IMG/VR virus record: IMGVR_UViG_2734482594_000023
Strand: one strand, 5' to 3'
Source: a virus
Taxonomy: Duplodnaviria; Heunggongvirae; Uroviricota; Caudoviricetes
DNA: 7,698 nt
The position numbers and the translations under genes were made by a program. Under the pieces are notes generated by a model that worked only from the letters and a program-made list of their open reading frames with translations, searched no databases and was not told the origin of the DNA. Below, in pieces: positions 1 to 7,681 of the stretch (position 1 is its first letter; the number at the start of each line of letters is the position of its first letter).

Positions 1-459
1 TTATTCAGTCGGCAGTGCTACGCGCCAGGGGAGCAGTTCGCCGACCCGGTTTATCGGCCAGTCGGCTATGACGTCAAGGACATAGCGGAGGTAGCTTTCT
101 GGCTCCACTCCGTTCAGTTTGCACGTCCCGATCAGGCTGTACAGCAGCGCTCCCCGCTCTCCTCCATGATCCGAACCGAAGAACAGGTAGTTTTTGCGGC
201 CCAGACTGACCATCCGCAACGCATTTTCAGCGATGTTATTGTCCGCCTCAGCCCAGCCATCATCTGCATAGTACGTCAGCGCCGGCCACTGGTTCAGGGC
301 ATATGCGAACGCTTTCGCCAGTTCTGAGTGTCGCGACAGGGTTTTCATCTTTTCACGCAGCCAGCTTTCCAGGGATTTCAGCAGCGGTTTCGTTTTCAAC
401 TGACGTTCGGCAAGGCGCTGTTTCAGCAGGAAGATGTCGTCAGAAGAGATGTCGTTCAT
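1..459 (-). CDS. IS66-family transposase, C-terminal fragment (truncated remnant)
   Basis: The 152-aa ORF carries the conserved C-terminal block of IS66-family transposases (...DNNIAENALRMVSLGRKNYLFFGSDHGGERGALLYSLIGTCKLNGVEPESYLRYVLDVIADWP...ELLPW). The upstream in-frame sequence hits a stop at 520-522, so the N-terminal two-thirds of the transposase and the other IS66 genes are absent on this side. Confidence 0.8.
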   Translation of the reverse strand: MNDISSDDIFLLKQRLAERQLKTKPLLKSLESWLREKMKTLSRHSELAKAFAYALNQWPALTYYADDGWAEADNNIAENALRMVSLGRKNYLFFGSDHGGERGALLYSLIGTCKLNGVEPESYLRYVLDVIADWPINRVGELLPWRVALPTE

Positions 460-522
460 AAGCCCGTATTTTACCGGGCTTATTCTGTGACAACCAGGAT
501 AAAGAGATTTACAGCATGGTCA
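1..522 (-). mobile_element. IS66-family insertion sequence remnant (3' portion only); right boundary approximate
   Basis: Transposase homology runs to the window edge at position 1 and cannot extend past the in-frame stop at 520-522. No IS terminal inverted repeat could be identified by eye. Confidence 0.4.
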
Positions 523-552
523 GGGAGGTCAGCAGCCGCTTAGGCTGTCTAT

Positions 553-642
553 AGCGCGGCGATTTTTTTGATACCGATTTGCATTTCATTTGATACCGCT
601 GAAAAACGCCGATACGCAACTTATTTGATACTAAATCGGCGC
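553..642. repeat. Cluster of short direct and inverted repeats (GATAC x4; CGGCGAT / ATCGGCG) downstream of mom; candidate transposase-binding sites at a Mu-like prophage end
   Basis: GATAC occurs at 570-574, 592-596, 611-615 and 627-631. TTGATACCG is repeated at 568-576 and 590-598. GCGCGGCGATTT (553-564) is near-inverted to AATCGGCGC (634-642), and GAAAAACGCCGA (601-612) resembles Mu end-type GAAAAACGCGAAA motifs as I recall them. Confidence 0.35.
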
Positions 643-677
643 TTTTCTTTTGAGTTTTAGAATGAGTTTTTAAGCGT

Positions 678-1415
678 TCATTCACTCTCTTTCAAACCAG
701 TTTTAACTGTTTGTGGTTTTGGGTAAGGCTGGACTTTGAATAGCTTTGTGTTAAGGCGTTTTCTGGCTCTCTTGTCCAGAAACCGGATGTAACGAAACTG
801 ACGGAATTTATGAACACTGGCTCTGTCGATATTAGCCCGCAGATGTTCACCTCGCTGTCCTCCTCGTTTGATTGCATTCTTGCAAATCTCGTGATACCAC
901 TCGCCATCAAGTTCATAGAATGTTGTTTCATGACTGCCTACATAATCAAAATTGCTTGCCTGGTACACGACACCAAGACAGCCACAACGCTCATCTGCAA
1001 ACGACTGAACCCACTGCACCTGCGGATAAAGTTGTCTGATTAGTTTGAGCGCGTAACTGATTGCCCTTGATTCGGAGTTTCTCGGCATACAGTCATGCAG
1101 CCATAACCGGTTAAGCTCCATATATTCGCGGTTCTGCGTGCCAGTTACGACGCGTGCACCATTGTTTGGATTAAGGGCATAACCCCATTGCATTACGCCA
1201 ACCAGCTCCCGTTCTGAAAATATGCCCAGATGAAGGTAGGAATTATTTACGAAACGATGGCTGTAATGTTTATTGACGACGACCAGCCGGGCCAGCCAGC
1301 AACTTATTGTCTCAACCCGTAACTCACGGGAGCCATAACCGACGATATTGTCGTTATAGTGAATAAGTTCAGGCGTGCTGATGATACGGGATGTAACTTG
1401 CTTTCTGTTCCCCAC
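678..1415 (-). CDS. mom: Mom-family DNA modification protein (adenine carbamoylmethylation, acyltransferase-like); start codon uncertain
   Basis: The ORF lies immediately downstream of, and overlapping, a Com-type zinc-finger gene, as in phage Mu. The proposed GTG start at 1415 gives 245 aa, close to Mu Mom (about 231 aa as I recall), has AAGGAAA 7-9 nt upstream, and sits in the 3' arm of a hairpin. The ORF track extends to a GTG at 1610, which I regard as over-extended; an ATG at 1577 is an alternative. Confidence 0.75.
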
Positions 1416-1569
1416 GACAGGATTTCCTTGTGTATGTGGGGTGCTCTGTGGCGCTCTGAGATGTGATTTGATTGAGGGTTTTACAGCGCGGACATTTAAC
1501 TTCCAGATAACTGAAGCTGGCTCGTGCCAGTAGCTTGTTACAATGTCGGCACCGTATGTTTCGATACAT
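1369..1569 (-). CDS. com: Com-family zinc-finger translational activator of mom
   Basis: The 66-aa product [33 protein letters not shown]... has a CxxC...CxxC zinc-finger layout like Mu Com. AGGAGG lies 10 nt upstream of the ATG at 1569, and the 3' end overlaps the mom start region by about 46 nt. The track's TTG start at 1614 is rejected. Confidence 0.8.
1410..1441 (-). promoter_or_regulatory. mRNA hairpin sequestering the mom GTG start, with the Shine-Dalgarno in the loop (putative Com-responsive translational operator)
   Basis: On the minus strand, CCCCAC (1441-1436) pairs with GTGGGG (1415-1410). The 20-nt loop contains AAGGAAA, and the GTG at 1415-1413 lies in the 3' arm. Confidence 0.45.
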
Positions 1570-1610
1570 GGCCGCATAACCTCCTGCTTTGTTGTTGATA
1601 TCTTTATCAC

Positions 1611-1702
1611 TCAATCGATCGACAAAAACGATCGATTTGATTTATTTAATTGATACAACAAATAACACGAAATGTCATTAGCGAAAATTTATGAGTTTGA
1701 TC
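1611..1702. promoter_or_regulatory. AT-rich divergent control region upstream of com/mom with clustered Dam (GATC) sites and an inverted repeat
   Basis: GATC occurs at 1617-1620, 1630-1633 and 1699-1702. The imperfect inverted repeat TCAATCGATCG-ACAAAAA-CGATCGATTTGA spans 1611-1640. In Mu, mom transcription is controlled by Dam methylation of upstream GATC sites (OxyR binding) and by C-protein activation. Confidence 0.4.
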
Positions 1703-1825
1703 ACTAATTTTAAACGGTGCTGTAACGCATAAGTGCTGAATGATTGTACATTTGAATACCGCAAAGCAAACAAATCAACTAATTTATAGAAGTCAATTGG
1801 TTAATTGCCAGCGTAAGAGGCTGCT

Positions 1826-2119
1826 ATGGACAATCATGTAACGACGAGAAATCGAAAAATGATTGAAAATGCGGAAATCTATAATGATTATTTTTCCGAT
1901 TATTCAGATGCCTGCAAATACAGTTCGAGTGCGGGAGAGTTCATATGCTTCAACTTTTTTATTAAATCTTATGTTTTTCCTCCACAGCAAGAAGATGGAG
2001 GTGTGCCACCTCCTGAAATCACTTTGCACCGTATAGCCTCCGTCTCAATGATGGAGCAACAGGCTAATGAGCTGTATAGCATTCTGGGAACGATTCTACA
2101 AAAGCGTGAATCGGACTAA
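1826..2119 (+). CDS. Hypothetical protein, 97 aa (low-GC orphan gene)
   Basis: ATG at 1826 is preceded by AAGAGG at 5-nt spacing and the frame is open for 97 codons. The gene is AT-rich compared with its neighbours and divergent from com/mom. I recognise no motif. Confidence 0.5.
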   Translation: MDNHVTTRNRKMIENAEIYNDYFSDYSDACKYSSSAGEFICFNFFIKSYVFPPQQEDGGVPPPEITLHRIASVSMMEQQANELYSILGTILQKRESD

Positions 2120-2286
2120 TGATACCGGTTCATTTGCCTGCCCGGATGGGGAAGCAGGATTGACTGCTCCATAAGCAGCTATATTTCTGAATACGAAATA
2201 CTATCCAGCGATTACATATGGCTGGATAGCGGCAAAGATGTTTTCATTAGTGTCAAACCGGCAGAGGACACCACCGGTTTGTATTG

Positions 2287-2541
2287 TTACATCATGGTAC
2301 TGTCAGTTCCGGGCTGAGCCGGGTCTGGTTGCTCTGGCTGCGCGTCGGTTTTCGGCTCATTATCAGCATCACTGGCCGCAACTGCTGGCCCAATAAGTTT
2401 TGCCAGCACTTCATCAACGTAAGTGTCGATTTGTGCCTCAAAATCCTTGCGGACCTGCGCTTTCAGCAACTTATTTACTTCACCGGAATACAGTGCCTGT
2501 TTTACCAGGTCTTCAGTGACGGTGCCTTTAATTTCTGGCAT
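2287..2541 (-). CDS. Hypothetical acidic protein, 84 aa
   Basis: ATG at 2541 has a strong AAGGAGG 7 nt upstream. The product is net acidic (about 16 D/E against 8 K/R) with a Pro/Asp/Glu-rich tail. It lies 35 nt downstream of the small membrane-protein gene, consistent with an operon. Confidence 0.65.
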   Translation of the reverse strand: MPEIKGTVTEDLVKQALYSGEVNKLLKAQVRKDFEAQIDTYVDEVLAKLIGPAVAASDADNEPKTDAQPEQPDPAQPGTDSTMM

Positions 2542-2576
2542 GTATATCCTCCTTATGCGGGAATAAAGCCCTGCAA

Positions 2577-2759
2577 TCAGGGCTGGGTCGGGTCTTTTGG
2601 GAGCGGAGTTACCTGCGCTGTTTTACTGAGTTTTTCAGCTGCTGCGTCCTCAATTTTGCGGCGAACATAATTTCTGATGGCCTTATAACCACCACTCACC
2701 AGATATAACGCACATACTGCCGTGCAGAAATACAATAAAATAAGCTGTAAAAATGTCAT
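2577..2759 (-). CDS. Small single-pass membrane protein, 60 aa
   Basis: ATG at 2759 is preceded by GGGAGGG. The product MTFLQLILLYFCTAVCALYLVSGG has one hydrophobic helix followed by a basic, charged tail (KAIRNYVRRKIED...). The track's TTG start at 2771 is rejected. Confidence 0.55.
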   Translation of the reverse strand: MTFLQLILLYFCTAVCALYLVSGGYKAIRNYVRRKIEDAAAEKLSKTAQVTPLPKDPTQP

Positions 2760-2774
2760 TATCCCTCCCAATTA

Positions 2775-2801
2775 TTGACATGGTGTTGACACCGGTAATA
2801 T
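2775..2801 (+). promoter_or_regulatory. Putative sigma70-type promoter on the plus strand, overlapping a 12-bp palindrome
   Basis: A perfect TTGACA at 2775-2780 is followed by a 15-nt spacer and TAATAT at 2796-2801. A second TTGACA lies at 2786-2791, and GGTGTtgACACC (2782-2793) is palindromic. The short spacer is a weakness. Confidence 0.3.
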
Positions 2802-2855
2802 CTGTTAGGTAAAAAGGTGCACTGCATTTTTTGCTTTGGATATAACGATCTTTTT

Positions 2856-2896
2856 GCCGCCGGTTTCTTGTTTTCCCTTACCGGCGGCATTTTTTT
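2856..2896 (+). terminator. Rho-independent terminator, oriented for the plus strand
   Basis: GCCGCCGGT (2856-2864) pairs with ACCGGCGGC (2880-2888) around a 15-nt loop and is followed by T7 at 2890-2896. On the minus strand the stem is followed by AAAAAG, so it is not a good terminator for the esterase gene. Confidence 0.5.
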
Positions 2897-2903
2897 ATCC
2901 TGC

Positions 2904-4440
2904 TTACGCGTTATTCACTTCCACCACGATACTGTCAATCAGTACCGGGTAAGTCGCATTTTTAGTGATATCGGTCACGCGCAACTTGTCTGCCGTAAAC
3001 GTGCCGACCGGAGACTGCGACAGCATGAATGGTGTCCCGTCCTTACCATCAANNNNNNNNNNNNNNNNNNNNNNNNNNNNNNNNNNNNNNNNNNNNNNNN
3101 NNNNNNNNNNNNNNNNNNNNNNNNNNNNNNNNNNNNNNNNNNNNNNNNNNNNNNNNNNNNNNNNNNNNNNNNNNNNNNNNNNNNNNNNNNNNNNNNNNNN
3201 NNNNNNNNNNNNNNNNNNNNNNNNNNNNNNNNNNNNNNNNNNNNNNNNNNNNNNNNNNNNNNNNNNNNNNNNNNNNNNNNNNNNNNNNNNNNNNNNNNNN
3301 NNNNNNNNNNNNNNNNNNNNNNNNNNNNNNNNNNNNNNNNNNNNNNNNNNNTGAGCCTTGCCACCTCCGGCAGCCCAACCCTGTGGTGTCAACCGTCCTT
3401 CAGACTCAGATGCCCGGTAAGCAAATAGCGTACTCATCGTCGTGGTGTCTGCGGGTGGCGTGGACGGTTTTGATGGTGTATCAGGTGACGGCTTCTCATC
3501 CGGTGGTGTCACGGTCTGCCCACGCATCAGTTCAGCCGTGCGCCCTGCATGGAGCATAATAGCTGAGGCCAGACGGTCTGAAATGACGCCCCTGCGTGCC
3601 CATGAGCTGAAATGGCTGTCACGCTGTGTCGAAACAAAACTGCCCTGGGTTCGGGATGCTGCACCGTAATACCCGACAGCCACAATATCCGGGTCTTCCG
3701 CCGGAGCATTCGTTGGCGTGCNNNNNNNNNNNNNNNNNNNNNNNNNNNNNNNNNNNNNNNNNNNNNNNNNNNNNNNNNNNNNNNNNNNNNNNNNNNNNNN
3801 NNNNNNNNNNNNNNNNNNNNNNNNNNNNNNNNNNNNNNNNNNNNNNNNNNNNNNNNNNNNNNNNNNNNNNNNNNNNNNNNNNNNNNNNNNNNNNNNNNNN
3901 NNNNNNNNNNNNNNNNNNNNNNNNNNNNNNNNNNNNNNNNNNNNNNNNNNNNNNNNNNNNNNNNNNNNNNNNNNNNNNNNNNNNNNNNNNNNNNNNNNNN
4001 NNNNNNNNNNNNNNNNNGCGGTCAAACGAATCCGGTAACGGCAGCCCCTCGCCGTAGGCCATGCCATTTGACTGACCCGCGAGAATGACAACAAAGTAAT
4101 ATTCCGGCTCTGAACTGCTGCCATTCGTGCTACCGGAAGGCCCGGCGTTATCCGGTGCATTCCAGTCGGAGGGCGTGAGCGTTCCGGCCACGTCAGATGT
4201 GATTGGAATGATGCCAGTCACGCCTGAACTGGTGATTTCTGCACTGGGATTACCGGATACCGGCATTACCCATAATGGCTCTTTCGTGCTGAAGCGGATC
4301 ACGCAGTCTGCGAAGGTGATCCCCCCTTTATTACCCGAAGGGCGGAAAGGGCTTTCAATAAATGCCACCGTGCCACCGGCAACCTTGACTGAAAACTCTC
4401 CGGGCATGGCGGAGAGCATTTTCCACTTGGAGTCTGACAT
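2904..4440 (-). CDS. NanS-like sialate O-acetylesterase (SGNH/SASA-type) with an N-terminal extension and a C-terminal Pro/Thr-rich linker plus extra domain; frame ambiguous across masked blocks
   Basis: The N-terminal part (4440->4018) contains YYFVVILAGQSNGMAYGEGLPLPD, the GQSN nucleophile block of SASA/NanS esterases. After the mask, TNAPAEDPD...GYYG...SHFSSWARRGVISDR continues the esterase in a different frame, followed by TPPDEKPSPDTPSKPSTPP and a C-terminal region ending at the TAA at 2904. The span (1537 nt) is not a multiple of 3, so either a frameshift lies in 3722-4017 or the masking is not length-exact. Confidence 0.65.
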
Positions 4441-4516
4441 CGTCTTTTCTGCCTGTTTCTGAATTAAACAGAGTCAGAATAGCGACCGCTGAAAAATATG
4501 TGTTTTGCGGAAATTC

Positions 4517-4544
4517 AAAAAAGCGTCACGGTACTTTTGGTGAC
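4517..4544 (-). terminator. Weak hairpin plus U-run at the invertase stop codon
   Basis: On the minus strand, GTCAC (4544-4540) pairs with GTGAC (4529-4525) across a 10-nt loop, followed by GCTTTTTTG. The stem is short. Confidence 0.25.
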
Positions 4545-5136
4545 GGAGCTGGTGAGGCAGGAAAATAACGATAAAGGNNNNNNNNNNNNNNNNNNNNNNN
4601 NNNNNNNNNNNNNNNNNNNNNNNNNNNNNNNNNNNNNNNNNNNNNNNNNNNNNNNNNNNNNNNNNNNNNNNNNNNNNNNNNNNNNNNNNNNNNNNNNNNN
4701 NNNNNNNNNNNNNNNNNNNNNNNNNNNNNNNNNNNNNNNNNNNNNNNNNNNNNNNNNNNNNNNNNNNNNNNNNNNNNNNNNNNNNNNNNNNNNNNNNNNN
4801 NNNNNNNNNNNNNNNNNNNNNNNNNNNNNNNNNNNNNNNNNNNNNNNNNNNNNNNNNNTTGTCCGTAATGCTGCGGAAGTTAACGCCGCGTTGCCGGAGT
4901 TCTTCTGTTAAAAGGACAAGGTGCTGCATACTGCGTCCAAGGCGATCCAGTTTCCAGACCAGCAGGGTATCCCCTGGCCGGAGTCGCTTTAATGCGCGTT
5001 TAAGTCCGGGACGCTCCCTTGTCTTACCGCTTATTCTGTCTTCGAAAAACAGCTCACATCCTGCACATTCCAGCGCATTTCTTTGTAGCGCCGTATTCTG
5101 GTCATTTGTTGACACCCTGATATACCCAATCAGCAT
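4526..5136 (-). CDS. Site-specific DNA invertase, serine recombinase (Gin/Pin/Cin/Hin family); C-terminal frame differs from the ORF track
   Basis: The N-terminus MLIGYIRVSTNDQNTALQRNALECAGCELFFEDRISGK...LLVWKLDRLGRS is a canonical resolvase/invertase catalytic domain. Left of the mask, the frame reading LYRYFPASPAPSPKVP* (stop at 4528-4526) matches the Hin-type C-terminal helix-turn-helix tail (STLYRYFPAS). The track frame ending at 4474 is rejected. The span is not a multiple of 3 if the masked block is length-exact. Confidence 0.8.
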
Positions 5137-5430
5137 NNNNNNNNNNNNNNNNNNNNNNNNNNNNNNNNNNNNNNNNNNNNNNNNNNNNNNNNNNNNNNNN
5201 NNNNNNNNNNNNNNNNNNNNNNNNNNNNNNNNNNNNNNNNNNNNNNNNNNNNNNNNNNNNNNNNNNNNNNNNNNNNNNNNNNNNNNNNNNNNNNNNNNNN
5301 NNNNNNNNNNNNNNNNNNNNNNNNNNNNNNNNNNNNNNNNNNNNNNNNNNNNNNNNNNNNNNNNNNNNNNNNNNNNNNNNNNNNNNNNNNNNNNNNNNNN
5401 NNNNNNNNNNNNNNNNNNNNNNNNNNNNNN

Positions 5431-5613
5431 TATATCCAGGATATCAGGCTGGGAGCAGAGAACAGGCAGGTAATGTACGGTGGGGCATATTACTCTGCGT
5501 ACGGTAATGTTATGGCAGGCCTGCAGATTGACAGTAAAGTTGATGCTTCAAACGATTTTATAGCATTCAGACCCCTGCAAAAATTAGTCGGAGGTACATG
5601 GATTACGGTATCT
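5431..5613 (+). CDS. Alternative tail-fibre C-terminal tip (S'v-type variable exon), 5' end masked
   Basis: The frame is open from the mask edge to the TAA at 5611-5613: ...GAENRQVMYGGAYYSAYGNVMAGLQIDSKVDASNDFIAFRPLQKLVGGTWITVSQL*. Its tail shares the RPLQ..L..G.W.T motif with the minus-strand fibre tip (...[22 protein letters not shown]). Confidence 0.6.
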
Positions 5614-7123: not shown

Positions 7124-7681
7124 TCATGGCTNNNNNNNNNNNNNNNNNNNNNNNNNNNNNNNNNNNNNNNNNNNNNNNNNNNNNNNNNNNNNNNNNNNNN
7201 NNNNNNNNNNNNNNNNNNNNNNNNNNNNNNNNNNNNNNNNNNNNNNNNNNNNNNNNNNNNNNNNNNNNNNNNNNNNNNNNNNNNNNNNNNNNNNNNNNNN
7301 NNNNNNNNNNNNNNNNNNNNNNNNNNNNNNNNNNNNNNNNNNNNNNNNNNNNNNNNNNNNNNNNNNNNNNNNNNNNNNNNNNNNCGAGGGCTTCATCCGG
7401 TATTTATTTCCGGCATAACGCTGTCGCTCCGTGAGGGTGGCTCCGGCCATATCACACTCGGGAAGCCCGAGATAACGCTCCCAGTCTTCCAGCAGCAGGC
7501 GCGACGTGTCAGGGAAACGCTCGGCAAGCAGCTGTTTACCCGTCCAGGATACACGCGCTGTCGAATGACTGAGGCCCAGACATAATGATGCCAGTACGGA
7601 TGACGGACGCTTGTCCCATGCCAGCCCGTCAGGCAGTAACTGCAACAGGGCGCGCTGATGCGGGGTCAGGGTTACAGCCAT
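7124..7681 (-). CDS. Phage baseplate/tail protein (P2 gpI / Mu gp48-like, DUF2313-type); C-terminal half masked
   Basis: ATG at 7681 has AGGAGA 7 nt upstream. The N-terminus MAVTLTPHQRALLQLLPDGLAWDKRP...LLEDWERYLGLPE resembles the gpI/gp48 family. The gene sits directly upstream of the tail-fibre gene, as in P2 (I-H-G) and Mu (48-S-U). The TGA at 7126-7124 is in frame only if the masked block is length-exact. Confidence 0.65.
   Translation of the reverse strand: MAVTLTPHQRALLQLLPDGLAWDKRPSSVLASLCLGLSHSTARVSWTGKQLLAERFPDTSRLLLEDWERYLGLPECDMAGATLTERQRYAGNKYRMKPSXXXXXXXXXXXXXXXXXXXXXXXXXXXXXXXXXXXXXXXXXXXXXXXXXXXXXXXXXXXXXXXXXXXXXXXXXXXXXXXXXXXXXP

What the first reader, a model, noticed from the sequence alone, without database searches (positions are those of the whole stretch)
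2287..2759. Two-gene cassette: small membrane protein plus acidic protein
A 60-aa single-helix membrane protein and an 84-aa strongly acidic protein form a tight operon with strong ribosome-binding sites, and neither matches anything I recognise. Small membrane proteins in prophages often act in superinfection exclusion, abortive infection or as toxins, and small acidic proteins are often DNA mimics or anti-defence factors.
Basis: inference. Interest (0 to 1): 0.55.

Follow-up and report, generated by a model that had tools for sequence, protein, structure and literature searches.

The report
Small gene pair trailing phage esterase
The two small genes are real and conserved, but they belong to two already-catalogued families of unknown function that always sit just after a phage sialic-acid esterase gene in E. 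coli prophages (including Shiga-toxin phages), and here that block has moved into a Mu-like prophage.

Summary
On the minus strand there is a 60-aa protein with one N-terminal membrane helix (2759..2577) and an 84-aa acidic protein (2541..2287), each with a strong ribosome-binding site. The claim that they match nothing is wrong: they are Pfam DUF1378 and DUF826, both almost confined to Escherichia/Shigella prophages. In about 230 loci examined, DUF1378 was never found without a NanS-p-type sialate O-acetylesterase gene directly upstream, and DUF826 nearly always followed it. This holds in two unrelated phage backbones: lambdoid (holin and SAR endolysin follow) and Mu-like (this window, between gin and com/mom, 26 kb from the lysis genes). 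Both genes are under purifying selection inside the Mu-like clade (dN/dS about 0.13-0.26). The pair is optional, because the same holin and a divergent esterase lineage occur without it. No defence-system, holin, releasin or solved-structure relative was detected. DUF826 is predicted as one long helix plus a disordered acidic tail. A co-folding probe was inconclusive. Function remains unknown. I favour a late-expressed, membrane-anchored accessory of the esterase module, with a lysis-timing role as the main rival. In passing: a conserved PasA/PasC-like small-RNA gene lies on the opposite strand just upstream of the cassette.

The parts
2577..2759 (-). DUF1378 gene: 60-aa bitopic inner-membrane protein with a TM helix at about residues 3-24, a basic amphipathic cytoplasmic helix at about 25-45, and a Pro-rich tail
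   Evidence: Pfam PF07125 E 9.4e-32 and phrog_494 E 1.3e-32; hydropathy and charge; 20 invariant columns among 12 homologs; helix 2-37 in the AF2 probe of the lambdoid homolog P0150; dN/dS 0.13 for residues 1-45
2287..2541 (-). DUF826 gene: 84-aa cytoplasmic acidic protein with helices 10-17 and 20-50, then a disordered acidic/Pro tail ending in hydrophobic residues (MM)
   Evidence: Pfam PF05696 E 6.4e-16 and phrog_311 E 4.9e-28; AF2 model with pLDDT above 90 for residues about 21-50 and below 50 for 56-84; pI 4.24; dN/dS 0.14 in the Mu clade
2763..2769 (-). Shine-Dalgarno GGGAGGG for DUF1378
   Evidence: Read directly from the sequence
2548..2554 (-). Shine-Dalgarno AAGGAGG for DUF826
   Evidence: Read directly from the sequence
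2255..2280 (-). Hairpin (AAACCGG...CCGGTTT) just after the DUF826 stop. It marks the terminator-like end of the module. The equivalent hairpin plus T-rich run lies between DUF826 and the holin in lambdoid loci
   Evidence: Sequence comparison of 29 distinct downstream regions; the stems differ between lineages but keep their pairing
2904..4440 (-). NanS-p-type sialate O-acetylesterase gene (684 aa in the unmasked genome; SASA + DUF6645 domains; partly masked by N-runs in the window). It is the invariable upstream neighbour of the pair
   Evidence: Pfam on the unmasked copy L001; 66% identity to VT2-Sakai NanS-p over aa 94-683; window-to-genome mapping; synteny tallies
2786..2896 (+). Candidate PasA/PasC-like small RNA gene on the strand opposite the cassette: TTGACA (2786-2791), N18, TAAAAA (2810-2815), putative start CTGCA at 2822, terminator stem 2856-2864/2880-2888, and T7 at 2890-2896 abutting the esterase stop
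   Evidence: The motif plus terminator is present in 32 of 33 distinct intergenic variants; the layout matches experimentally mapped PasA of EPEC E2348/69; weak full-length Rfam Esr41 match, 22 bits, E 0.12; fold z-score -4.6
4526..5136 (-). gin-type serine invertase. It marks the Mu-like context and is the likely source of read-through transcription into the esterase and the pair
   Evidence: RefSeq annotation of the identical locus; mapping; an 85-nt gap to the esterase start in which I saw no terminator by eye
678..1614 (-). com (1614..1369) and mom (1385..678; ORF open from 1610), the Mu right-end genes downstream of the cassette
   Evidence: Pfam Zn_ribbon_Com E 1.3e-12 and Mom E 1.6e-77; PHROGs; annotation

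Best explanation
The two ORFs are genuine genes of the DUF1378 and DUF826 families. They form the distal part of a mobile cargo module found in E. coli prophages, in this order: NanS-p-type sialate O-acetylesterase, an opposite-strand PasA-like small-RNA gene, DUF1378, DUF826, and a terminator-like hairpin. In lambdoid and Stx phages this module sits in the late operon just before the pinholin and SAR-endolysin genes. In this window the block lies between gin and com/mom of a Mu-like prophage, and the esterase has a different N-terminal domain. Proposed working (inferred, not shown): the pair is transcribed by read-through from the esterase gene, so it is made together with the esterase. DUF1378 inserts in the inner membrane N-out/C-in and presents a basic amphipathic helix to the cytoplasm. 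DUF826 docks on that helix through its long amphipathic helix and extends an acidic, proline-rich tail with a hydrophobic tip as a tether for a partner at the cytoplasmic face of the membrane. I take the pair to be an optional accessory of the esterase module, for example retaining or handing over the esterase or esterase-decorated particles late in infection. I do not take it to be a defence or toxin cassette.
For: Shown:
- Family membership.
- Identical order esterase, DUF1378, DUF826 in VT2-Sakai and in every sampled neighbourhood.
- In the DUF1378-seeded set, every locus with enough upstream flank has the esterase upstream and DUF826 downstream, in about 65 lambdoid and 29 Mu-like loci.
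- In samples not conditioned on DUF1378, 0 loci have the pair without the esterase, while about 35 Mu-type loci have the pair without a holin nearby.
- K-12 Qin has a P21-type holin but neither the esterase nor the pair.
- Purifying selection inside the Mu clade, with dS up to about 1.
- No sense-strand promoter or U-tract terminator was detected between the esterase and DUF1378.
- NanS-p (phi24B gp84) is reported as a virion capsid-decoration protein made late.

Inferred:
- Topology, from the positive-inside rule.
- Complementary charge: the DUF1378 cytoplasmic helix is about +3 (my count) and DUF826 is -8.5 overall.
- Amphipathic helices in both proteins.
Against: - A divergent esterase lineage (about 53% identity; E. 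albertii type, and EPEC E2348/69 PP2/PP5) has no pair, so esterases do not generally need it.
- The Mu-like context may descend from a single transfer, so there are effectively only two independent contexts.
- Strict adjacency could reflect one origin that then spread by flanking homologous recombination.
- Sequence divergence of the pair correlates with the holin (rho 0.33-0.43) at least as well as with the esterase 3' end (rho 0.24-0.28).
- L088 combines a Mu-type esterase with a lambdoid-type pair.
- The AF2 co-fold probe gave no confident DUF1378-DUF826 contact (pTM 0.24).
- There is no obvious reason why a cytoplasmically assembled capsid-decoration enzyme would need a membrane anchor.
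Confidence: 0.4

Rival explanations
1. The pair is a lysis-timing modulator. It forms a membrane-tethered cytoplasmic complex that tunes when the pinholin or SAR endolysin fires, for instance by engaging the basic cytoplasmic N-terminus of the SAR endolysin. That would make it analogous in topology to the Mu releasin gp25 or to the T4 RI/RIII antiholin pair. It travelled with the esterase only because it lies next to it.
For: In all lambdoid loci the pair lies about 75 nt upstream of a P21-type holin with a dual-start motif and a SAR endolysin. Both backbones use SAR endolysins with basic N-termini: MSRKLRYG... in Sakai and MPKLPAPLRKKL... in the Mu-like prophage. DUF1378 has the same outline as a releasin, an N-terminal TM helix plus a cytoplasmic domain (precedent from my knowledge of Chamblee et al. 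2022, not read here). The DUF826 tail is strongly acidic. Pair divergence co-varies with holin divergence (rho 0.33-0.43).
Against: The same holin (96-97% identical) occurs without the pair in 32 of 73 loci. P21-type cassettes without the esterase lack the pair (K-12 Qin). A terminator-like hairpin separates DUF826 from the holin. In the Mu-like prophage the pair is 26 kb from the lysis genes, and that prophage already has its own DUF2730 releasin. There is no profile similarity to the releasin (probability 0.5%) or to the P21 holin (0.3%).
Confidence: 0.25
2. The pair is an autonomous moron acting for the lysogen: superinfection exclusion or abortive infection by the membrane protein, and/or an anti-defence or DNA-mimic role for the acidic protein.
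For: The generic prior for small prophage membrane and acidic proteins applies. The cassette is bounded downstream by a terminator-like hairpin. In the Mu-like prophage it lies behind gin, which in phage Mu is expressed in lysogens (my knowledge of Mu, not tested). Both genes are kept under selection in two different phage types.
Against: There were no significant PADLOC hits. No sense-strand promoter was detected in the conserved upstream region. In lambdoid phages the genes are in the Q-dependent late operon downstream of stx and nanS-p. DUF1378 has essentially no periplasmic part, only 2 residues before the membrane segment. The DUF826 acidity sits in a predicted disordered, proline-rich tail rather than a folded DNA-like surface. 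The family is very small and confined to Escherichia, and the pair was never found away from the esterase.
Confidence: 0.15
3. DUF1378 is a small membrane toxin or holin-like peptide. Its synthesis is restrained by the divergently encoded PasA-like RNA, with geometry like the type I toxin-antitoxin pairs tisB/istR-1 or zorO/orzO, and DUF826 modulates it.
For: DUF1378 is a 60-aa hydrophobic single-helix peptide. A conserved opposite-strand promoter-like motif and terminator predict a 73-104 nt RNA complementary to the region roughly 60-140 nt upstream of the DUF1378 start, in 32 of 33 intergenic variants. The related PasA is an abundant Hfq-dependent sRNA.
Against: PasA/PasC genes occur in esterase-holin intervals that have no DUF1378, so the RNA does not depend on the peptide. 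DUF1378 has a strong, apparently unsequestered ribosome-binding site and is followed by a second gene, which is unlike classical type I toxins as I know them. No hit to any toxin family was found.
Confidence: 0.1
4. The ORFs are non-functional passengers or annotation artefacts carried along with the esterase.
For: Function is unknown. Many database entries for this region are mis-called, including N-extended DUF826 ORFs and frameshift 'fusions'.
Against: dN/dS is 0.13-0.26 with dS up to about 1 or more. The ORFs are intact in about 94 loci. Start codons and ribosome-binding sites are conserved, and the membrane segment is highly conserved.
Confidence: 0.02

Closest known systems
Pfam DUF1378 (PF07125) / PHROG 494
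   Same: Full-length match (residues 1-58 of 59 profile positions, 109 bits against a cut-off of 25). Same length, and the same N-terminal membrane segment with the LYFCT..C.LYL.SGGY motif.
   Different: Nothing structural differs. This copy belongs to the Mu-prophage sub-lineage and is 52% identical to the VT2-Sakai copy. The family has no assigned function.
Pfam DUF826 (PF05696) / PHROG 311
   Same: The N-terminal helical module of about 57 residues matches (58.7 bits against a cut-off of 25). It shares the family layout of a helical head plus an acidic, proline-rich tail with a hydrophobic C-terminus.
   Different: It is only 38-46% identical to the lambdoid members. Tail length and sequence vary widely across the family, from 79 to 164 aa in total. 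The family has no assigned function.
The nanS-p to S interval of Stx/lambdoid prophages (933W, VT2-Sakai, phi24B gp84 region)
   Same: Same gene order (esterase, DUF1378, DUF826). Same conserved hairpin after the esterase stop and same opposite-strand promoter-like motif. The esterase catalytic and jelly-roll domains are 66% identical. PMC10462455 notes DUF826 and DUF1378 ORFs between nanS-p and S without assigning a function.
   Different: Here the block is in a Mu-like prophage between gin and com/mom. It is not followed by a holin or endolysin and not preceded by stx, Q or STnc100/PasD. The esterase lacks the DUF1737 capsid-binding N-domain.
Mu gp25 releasin (DUF2730)
   Same: Outline only: a small protein with an N-terminal membrane helix and a cytoplasmic C-terminal part, in a phage with a SAR endolysin.
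   Different: No detectable homology (hhalign probability 0.5%). DUF1378 is shorter (60 aa against 103 aa). This prophage already has a DUF2730 gene beside its lysis genes. No functional test was possible.
PasA/PasC (EcOnc51/52) prophage sRNAs and Esr41
   Same: This applies to the opposite-strand element, not the proteins. It has the same position and orientation (after the esterase gene, transcribed towards it), the same promoter layout (TTGACA-N18-xAxAAA, then CTGC at the start), and the same terminator abutting the esterase stop.
   Different: No blastn similarity to PasA or PasC. The Esr41 Rfam score is far below gathering (22 against 102 bits). Expression has not been shown for this variant.

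Membership tests
Pfam DUF1378 (PF07125) | Profile match above the curated gathering score over the full length | tested here: met
   109.4 bits against 25; residues 1-58 on profile positions 1-58 of 59
Pfam DUF1378 (PF07125) | Protein of about 59 residues with one N-terminal hydrophobic helix | tested here: met
   60 aa; Kyte-Doolittle 19-residue mean 2.27 at residues 3-21; conserved across 12 homologs
Pfam DUF826 (PF05696) | Profile match above the curated gathering score | tested here: met
   58.7 bits against 25; residues 1-57 on profile positions 1-58 of 75. The tail is too divergent to align
NanS-p esterase module of lambdoid/Stx prophages | SASA + DUF6645 esterase gene immediately upstream, same strand | tested here: met
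   Pfam on the unmasked copy; synteny in all loci with sufficient flank
NanS-p esterase module of lambdoid/Stx prophages | Esterase carries the N-terminal DUF1737 capsid-binding domain | tested here: not met
   No DUF1737 hit for the Mu-type esterase. Its first ~93 residues do not align with Sakai NanS-p, and a scan of residues 1-110 found no PHROG family
NanS-p esterase module of lambdoid/Stx prophages | Module followed by a P21-type holin and SAR endolysin in a Q-dependent late operon | tested here: not met
   Here it is followed by a hypothetical gene, com and mom. The lysis genes are 26 kb away
Holins (P21 S / Phage_holin_2_1) | Sequence or profile similarity to the holin family | tested here: not met
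   No holin family in the Pfam or PHROG scans; hhalign probability 0.3% against the neighbouring-type holin
Holins (P21 S / Phage_holin_2_1) | Two transmembrane domains, as in the S21 pinholin (from my knowledge of the family) | tested here: not met
   Only one hydrophobic segment in the 60 aa
Releasin (Mu gp25, DUF2730) | Homology to DUF2730 | tested here: not met
   hhalign probability 0.5% against this prophage's own DUF2730 protein; no Pfam hit
Releasin (Mu gp25, DUF2730) | Required for release of a SAR endolysin from the membrane | not testable with these tools
   Needs lysis assays
Known anti-phage defence systems (PADLOC) | Match to any defence-system protein model | tested here: not met
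   DUF1378 gave none. DUF826 gave only PbeC at 12.9 bits, E 0.0076, over a helical stretch
Type I toxin-antitoxin | Small hydrophobic peptide plus a cis-encoded antisense or divergent RNA | tested here: inconclusive
   The peptide fits and a candidate RNA is present. However, the same RNA type occurs without DUF1378
Type I toxin-antitoxin | Toxicity of the peptide on expression | not testable with these tools
   Needs inducible expression
T4 RI/RIII antiholin pair | Homology or an interaction with a holin | not tested
   The analogy comes from memory only. No T4 sequences were fetched
PasA/PasC sRNA family (opposite-strand element) | Position between the esterase and the next gene, opposite strand, terminator at the esterase stop | tested here: met
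PasA/PasC sRNA family (opposite-strand element) | Sequence similarity to PasA/PasC, or an Rfam hit at gathering score | tested here: not met
   No blastn hit at 1e-3; Esr41 at 22 bits against 102

The most novel reading that the evidence does not exclude
DUF1378 and DUF826 form a new kind of membrane-tethered acidic adaptor that controls a late envelope step shared by pinholin/SAR-endolysin lambdoid phages and holin-less Mu-like phages. For example, it might hold or release the basic cytoplasmic N-terminus of SAR endolysins (an 'anti-releasin'), and so set the timing of lysis and of Shiga toxin and esterase release. The divergent PasA-like RNA might couple its expression to host physiology.
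Probability: 0.12. Interest if true: 0.6.

Novelty: new member of a known kind. Interest (0 to 1): 0.3.

Why it matters
These two genes sit in one of the most medically relevant stretches of phage DNA, between the Shiga toxin/NanS-p genes and the lysis cassette of Stx phages, yet they have no known function and are often mis-annotated. The pair travels with the esterase into a completely different phage type and stays under selection there. That gives a concrete starting point for experiments: the function should not depend on an adjacent holin. If the pair influences esterase handling or lysis timing, it would bear on how much toxin and mucin-modifying enzyme EHEC releases. As it stands, the result is an improved annotation and a delimited module, not a new mechanism.

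Tried and rejected
- **YdfR lead.** I recalled that K-12 YdfR (Qin) is DUF826. It is DUF1327, so the lead was dropped.
- **Apparent natural fusions.** P0150 and P0197 carry both domains, but they are frameshift or mis-called ORFs that read through the alternate frame. They are not evidence of an interaction.
- **Solved structures.** Profile searches of PDB sequences gave only chance-level hits for both families.
- **Fold search.** I did not run one. The DUF826 model is a single long helix plus disorder, and matches to that would be meaningless.
- **Co-folding.** A first composite alignment was mis-aligned by MAFFT. The allowed probe with P0150 gave pTM 0.24, which is inconclusive.
- **Divergence correlations.** Comparing the pair with the esterase 3' end and with the holin did not discriminate between the two ideas.
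- **Locus-tag literature search.** ECs1208, Z1467 and L0106 returned only irrelevant papers.
- **Near-identity search of sequenced phages.** It found nothing. The distant search found only two Stx phage records that carry an inserted Mu-like phage.
- **Rfam at gathering threshold on ten related loci.** No family was found in the esterase-DUF1378 gap. Only STnc100, AsxR, isrK, C4-type RNAs and tRNAs were found upstream of the esterase.
- **Sense-strand promoter for the pair.** The scan found none in the upstream gap. Manual inspection gave only weak candidates placed too close to the ribosome-binding site.

Full report
**Observation.** One runs 2759..2577 (60 aa) and the other 2541..2287 (84 aa). 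Each is preceded by a strong Shine-Dalgarno sequence: GGGAGGG at 2769-2763 and AAGGAGG at 2554-2548. They are 35 nt apart. The first protein has pI 9.3 and a single strongly hydrophobic stretch at residues 3-21. No charged residue precedes that stretch and five K/R follow it, so I infer N-out/C-in topology with almost no periplasmic part. The second protein has pI 4.24 and net charge -8.5. By my count from the sequence, about -6 of that sits in residues 53-84. The description is confirmed.

**Identity.** The statement that neither protein matches anything is wrong. The 60-aa protein is a full-length member of Pfam DUF1378 (E 9e-32) and PHROG 494. The 84-aa protein is a member of Pfam DUF826 (E 6e-16) and PHROG 311. 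The same DNA occurs at 100% identity in 14 complete E. coli genomes, where RefSeq already gives these names. Partial matches at 80-90% identity occur in more than 300 further genomes. Both families are very narrow. The large-database searches returned 76 clusters for DUF1378 and 233 for DUF826, almost all from Escherichia or Shigella, with some from Citrobacter farmeri. An exhaustive profile search of 1.84 billion representatives found only 62 DUF826 relatives. No function is recorded for either family. Only one relevant paper mentions them, in a single sentence, as ORFs between nanS-p and the holin gene S of Stx2a phages.

**Context in the window.** The window is the right end of a complete Mu-like prophage. 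Reading the minus strand, the order is:
- baseplate and tail-fibre genes
- an invertible-segment region with a gin-type invertase (4526-5136)
- a 684-aa esterase (2904-4440, partly masked)
- the two small genes
- a small AT-rich gene on the other strand
- com and mom
- the prophage end near 550, followed by an IS66-family fragment

The esterase has SASA and DUF6645 domains. It is 66% identical to NanS-p of phage VT2-Sakai over residues 94-683. Its first ~93 residues do not align with Sakai NanS-p, lack the DUF1737 domain, and gave no PHROG match in a scan of residues 1-110. A 2026 preprint reports that NanS-p (phi24B gp84) is a capsid-decoration protein anchored through DUF1737. The Mu-type enzyme therefore looks like a domain-swapped version.

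**The pair belongs to a module.** In VT2-Sakai the order is stx2AB, nanS-p, DUF1378, DUF826, holin S, endolysin R. There DUF1378 is unannotated and overlaps a mis-called 139-aa 'orf43' that contains the real DUF826. Thirteen neighbourhoods of divergent homologs had the same order. I then classified 103 loci with a reference-protein panel. Every DUF1378 locus with enough flank had the esterase upstream and DUF826 downstream. About 65 were lambdoid (a P21-type holin, sometimes DUF1327, and a SAR lysozyme follow). About 29 were Mu-like (gin upstream, com/mom downstream).

Two samples not conditioned on DUF1378 gave the following:
- Holin-seeded: 73 usable loci with a 94-97% identical P21-type holin. 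All 73 had the esterase. 41 had the pair and 32 did not.
- Esterase-seeded: 68 usable loci. 64 had the pair, 3 had none, and 1 had DUF826 only.

Where the pair is missing, the esterase belongs to a divergent lineage (about 53% identity) that abuts the holin with a gap of about 150 nt. Other examples without the pair are the two SASA esterases of EPEC E2348/69 and the short chromosomal SASA enzymes of Proteus. K-12 Qin has a P21-type holin but neither the esterase nor the pair.

In summary, the pair is never seen without the esterase, is seen without a holin in the Mu context, and is dispensable both for that holin and for esterases in general.

**Are the genes functional without a holin next door?** Yes. 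Both ORFs are intact in all Mu-type loci, with 8 and 12 distinct protein variants. Median dN/dS within the Mu clade is 0.26 for DUF1378 (0.13 for residues 1-45) and 0.14 for DUF826, with dS reaching about 1. This rules out inert passengers.

**Limits of the linkage argument.** The Mu-like loci may descend from one transfer, so independent contexts are few. Among 100 lambdoid haplotypes, pair divergence correlates with holin divergence (rho 0.33-0.43) at least as well as with the esterase 3' end (rho 0.24-0.28), so recombination occurs on both sides. One locus, L088, joins gin and a Mu-type esterase to a lambdoid-type pair, holin and lysozyme.

**Structure and remote homology.** AlphaFold2 with a 21-sequence alignment predicts DUF826 as a short helix (10-17) and a long, confident helix (20-50), followed by a disordered tail. 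Across the family the tail varies in length and sequence, stays acidic and proline-rich, and in most members ends in hydrophobic residues (MM, MMM, TLL, TML). PDB sequence searches gave nothing significant. PADLOC and NCBIfam gave nothing significant. Profile comparison of DUF1378 with this prophage's DUF2730 releasin and with the P21 holin gave probabilities of 0.5% and 0.3%. A co-folding probe was inconclusive (pTM 0.24).

**Expression signals.** No sigma-70-like promoter was found on the sense strand ahead of DUF1378. The hairpin after the esterase stop has an A-run before it and no U-run after it in the sense direction. I therefore infer read-through from the esterase gene, which itself starts 85 nt after gin. 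A hairpin with a T-rich run follows DUF826 in both backbones. In lambdoid phages that hairpin lies between DUF826 and the holin.

**Most likely working.** I rank four readings:
1. An optional accessory of the esterase module (0.4). DUF1378 anchors in the inner membrane, and DUF826 docks on its basic cytoplasmic helix and offers an acidic tail as a tether.
2. A lysis-timing modulator acting on pinholin/SAR-endolysin systems (0.25). Both backbones use SAR endolysins with basic N-termini.
4. A type-I-like membrane toxin controlled by the divergent RNA (0.1).

Shown: identity, synteny, selection and the predicted secondary structure. Inferred: topology, complex formation, timing of expression and any partner.

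**Seen in passing.** The opposite strand of the esterase-DUF1378 gap carries a conserved small-RNA-like gene. It has TTGACA-N18-TAAAAA (2786-2815), a putative start CTGCA at 2822, a 9-10-bp GC stem, and U7 ending at 2896 beside the esterase stop. The same layout is present in 32 of 33 distinct gap variants from both backbones, and the stems differ between lineages while keeping their pairing. The fold z-score is -4.6. Rfam gives only a weak full-length Esr41 match (22 bits). The experimentally mapped PasA sRNA of EPEC E2348/69 occupies the same position and orientation, with the same promoter layout and a CTGC start, but there is no sequence similarity. This is probably a divergent member of the PasA/PasC (EcOnc51/52) group, now also present in Mu-like prophages.

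**Verdict.** The finding is a real, conserved two-gene unit, but both genes belong to already catalogued families, and the defence or toxin reading has no support. What is new here is:
- the module is delimited
- it has moved into Mu-like prophages, with an esterase domain swap
- selection acts on the pair independently of an adjacent holin

Interest is modest.

Noticed in passing
window 2786-2896, + strand: Conserved small-RNA-like gene opposite the cassette. It has TTGACA-N18-TAAAAA, a putative start CTGCA at 2822, and a GC terminator stem plus U7 abutting the esterase stop. The layout matches mapped PasA/PasC of EPEC, but the sequence is not similar. Rfam gives only a weak Esr41 match (22 bits). 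The layout is present in 32 of 33 intergenic variants from lambdoid and Mu-like loci.
   Followed up: partly
window about 4160-4440 (minus strand); L001 22530-22809: The Mu-type esterase replaces the DUF1737 capsid-binding N-domain of NanS-p with about 93 unrelated residues that have no family match. [quoted passage not shown] This suggests an in-frame domain swap that adapts the enzyme to a different virion or role.
   Followed up: partly
L088 (IMGVR_UViG_2617270951_000022), 96-5136: Chimeric locus: gin and a Mu-type esterase (99% identical) are followed by a lambdoid-type DUF1378/DUF826, a P21 holin and a lysozyme. This is either recombination between a Mu-like and a lambdoid prophage inside the shared module, or an assembly artefact.
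   Followed up: no
L060, L063, L071, L083 (for example L063 5221-5774): DUF826 is truncated after residue 51 and joined to a fragment of an esterase 3' end. A PasA or PasC copy (98% identical to the EPEC sRNAs) follows, before the holin. These look like recombination scars and suggest the esterase-holin interval is a hotspot.
   Followed up: partly
window 3053-3351, 3722-4017, 4578-4858, 5137-5430, 7132-7384: The masked N-runs do not preserve the length of the underlying sequence. The offset to the identical genome changes from 17852 to 18369 and back to 18271. ORFs listed across these runs are therefore artefactual in frame and length; for example 'gin' is listed as 4474-5136 but is really 4526-5136.
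   Followed up: yes
window 1859-2119, + strand: An 86-97 aa ORF in a 33-41% GC island, convergent with the cassette. It has no match in Pfam, PADLOC or NCBIfam and only a chance-level PHROG hit. It is present in only about a third of the Mu-type loci, so it is probably a separately acquired gene.
   Followed up: partly
window 1-549 and about 550-677: The left 549 bases are not prophage. They encode the C-terminal part of an IS66-family-like transposase (my reading of the translation, not tested) and differ from the rhs/ybfB flank of the identical prophage in strain JE86-ST05. That fits random, Mu-type insertion. The prophage end lies near 550.
   Followed up: partly
window 1369-1614 (com) and 678-1610 (mom ORF): com is an intact 81-aa zinc-ribbon ORF here, but RefSeq marks it as frameshifted in the near-identical genome. 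The mom reading frame is open for 310 codons from a GTG that overlaps com, while RefSeq annotates 235 aa.
   Followed up: no
L002 (VT2-Sakai) 5001-5466 and database proteins P0145, P0150, P0153, P0197: Systematic mis-annotation. DUF826 is often called with a long N-terminal extension in a frame that overlaps DUF1378 (Sakai orf43, 139 aa). This leaves DUF1378 unannotated. Single-base errors create false DUF1378-DUF826 'fusion' proteins.
   Followed up: yes
DUF826 C-terminus, window 2290-2295 (codons for MM) and homologs: After a variable acidic, proline-rich tail, most full-length family members examined end in two or three hydrophobic residues (MM, MMM, TLL, TML, TIL). This resembles the acidic tail with a hydrophobic tip used as a docking motif by SSB-type proteins. 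That comparison comes from memory and was not tested.
   Followed up: no
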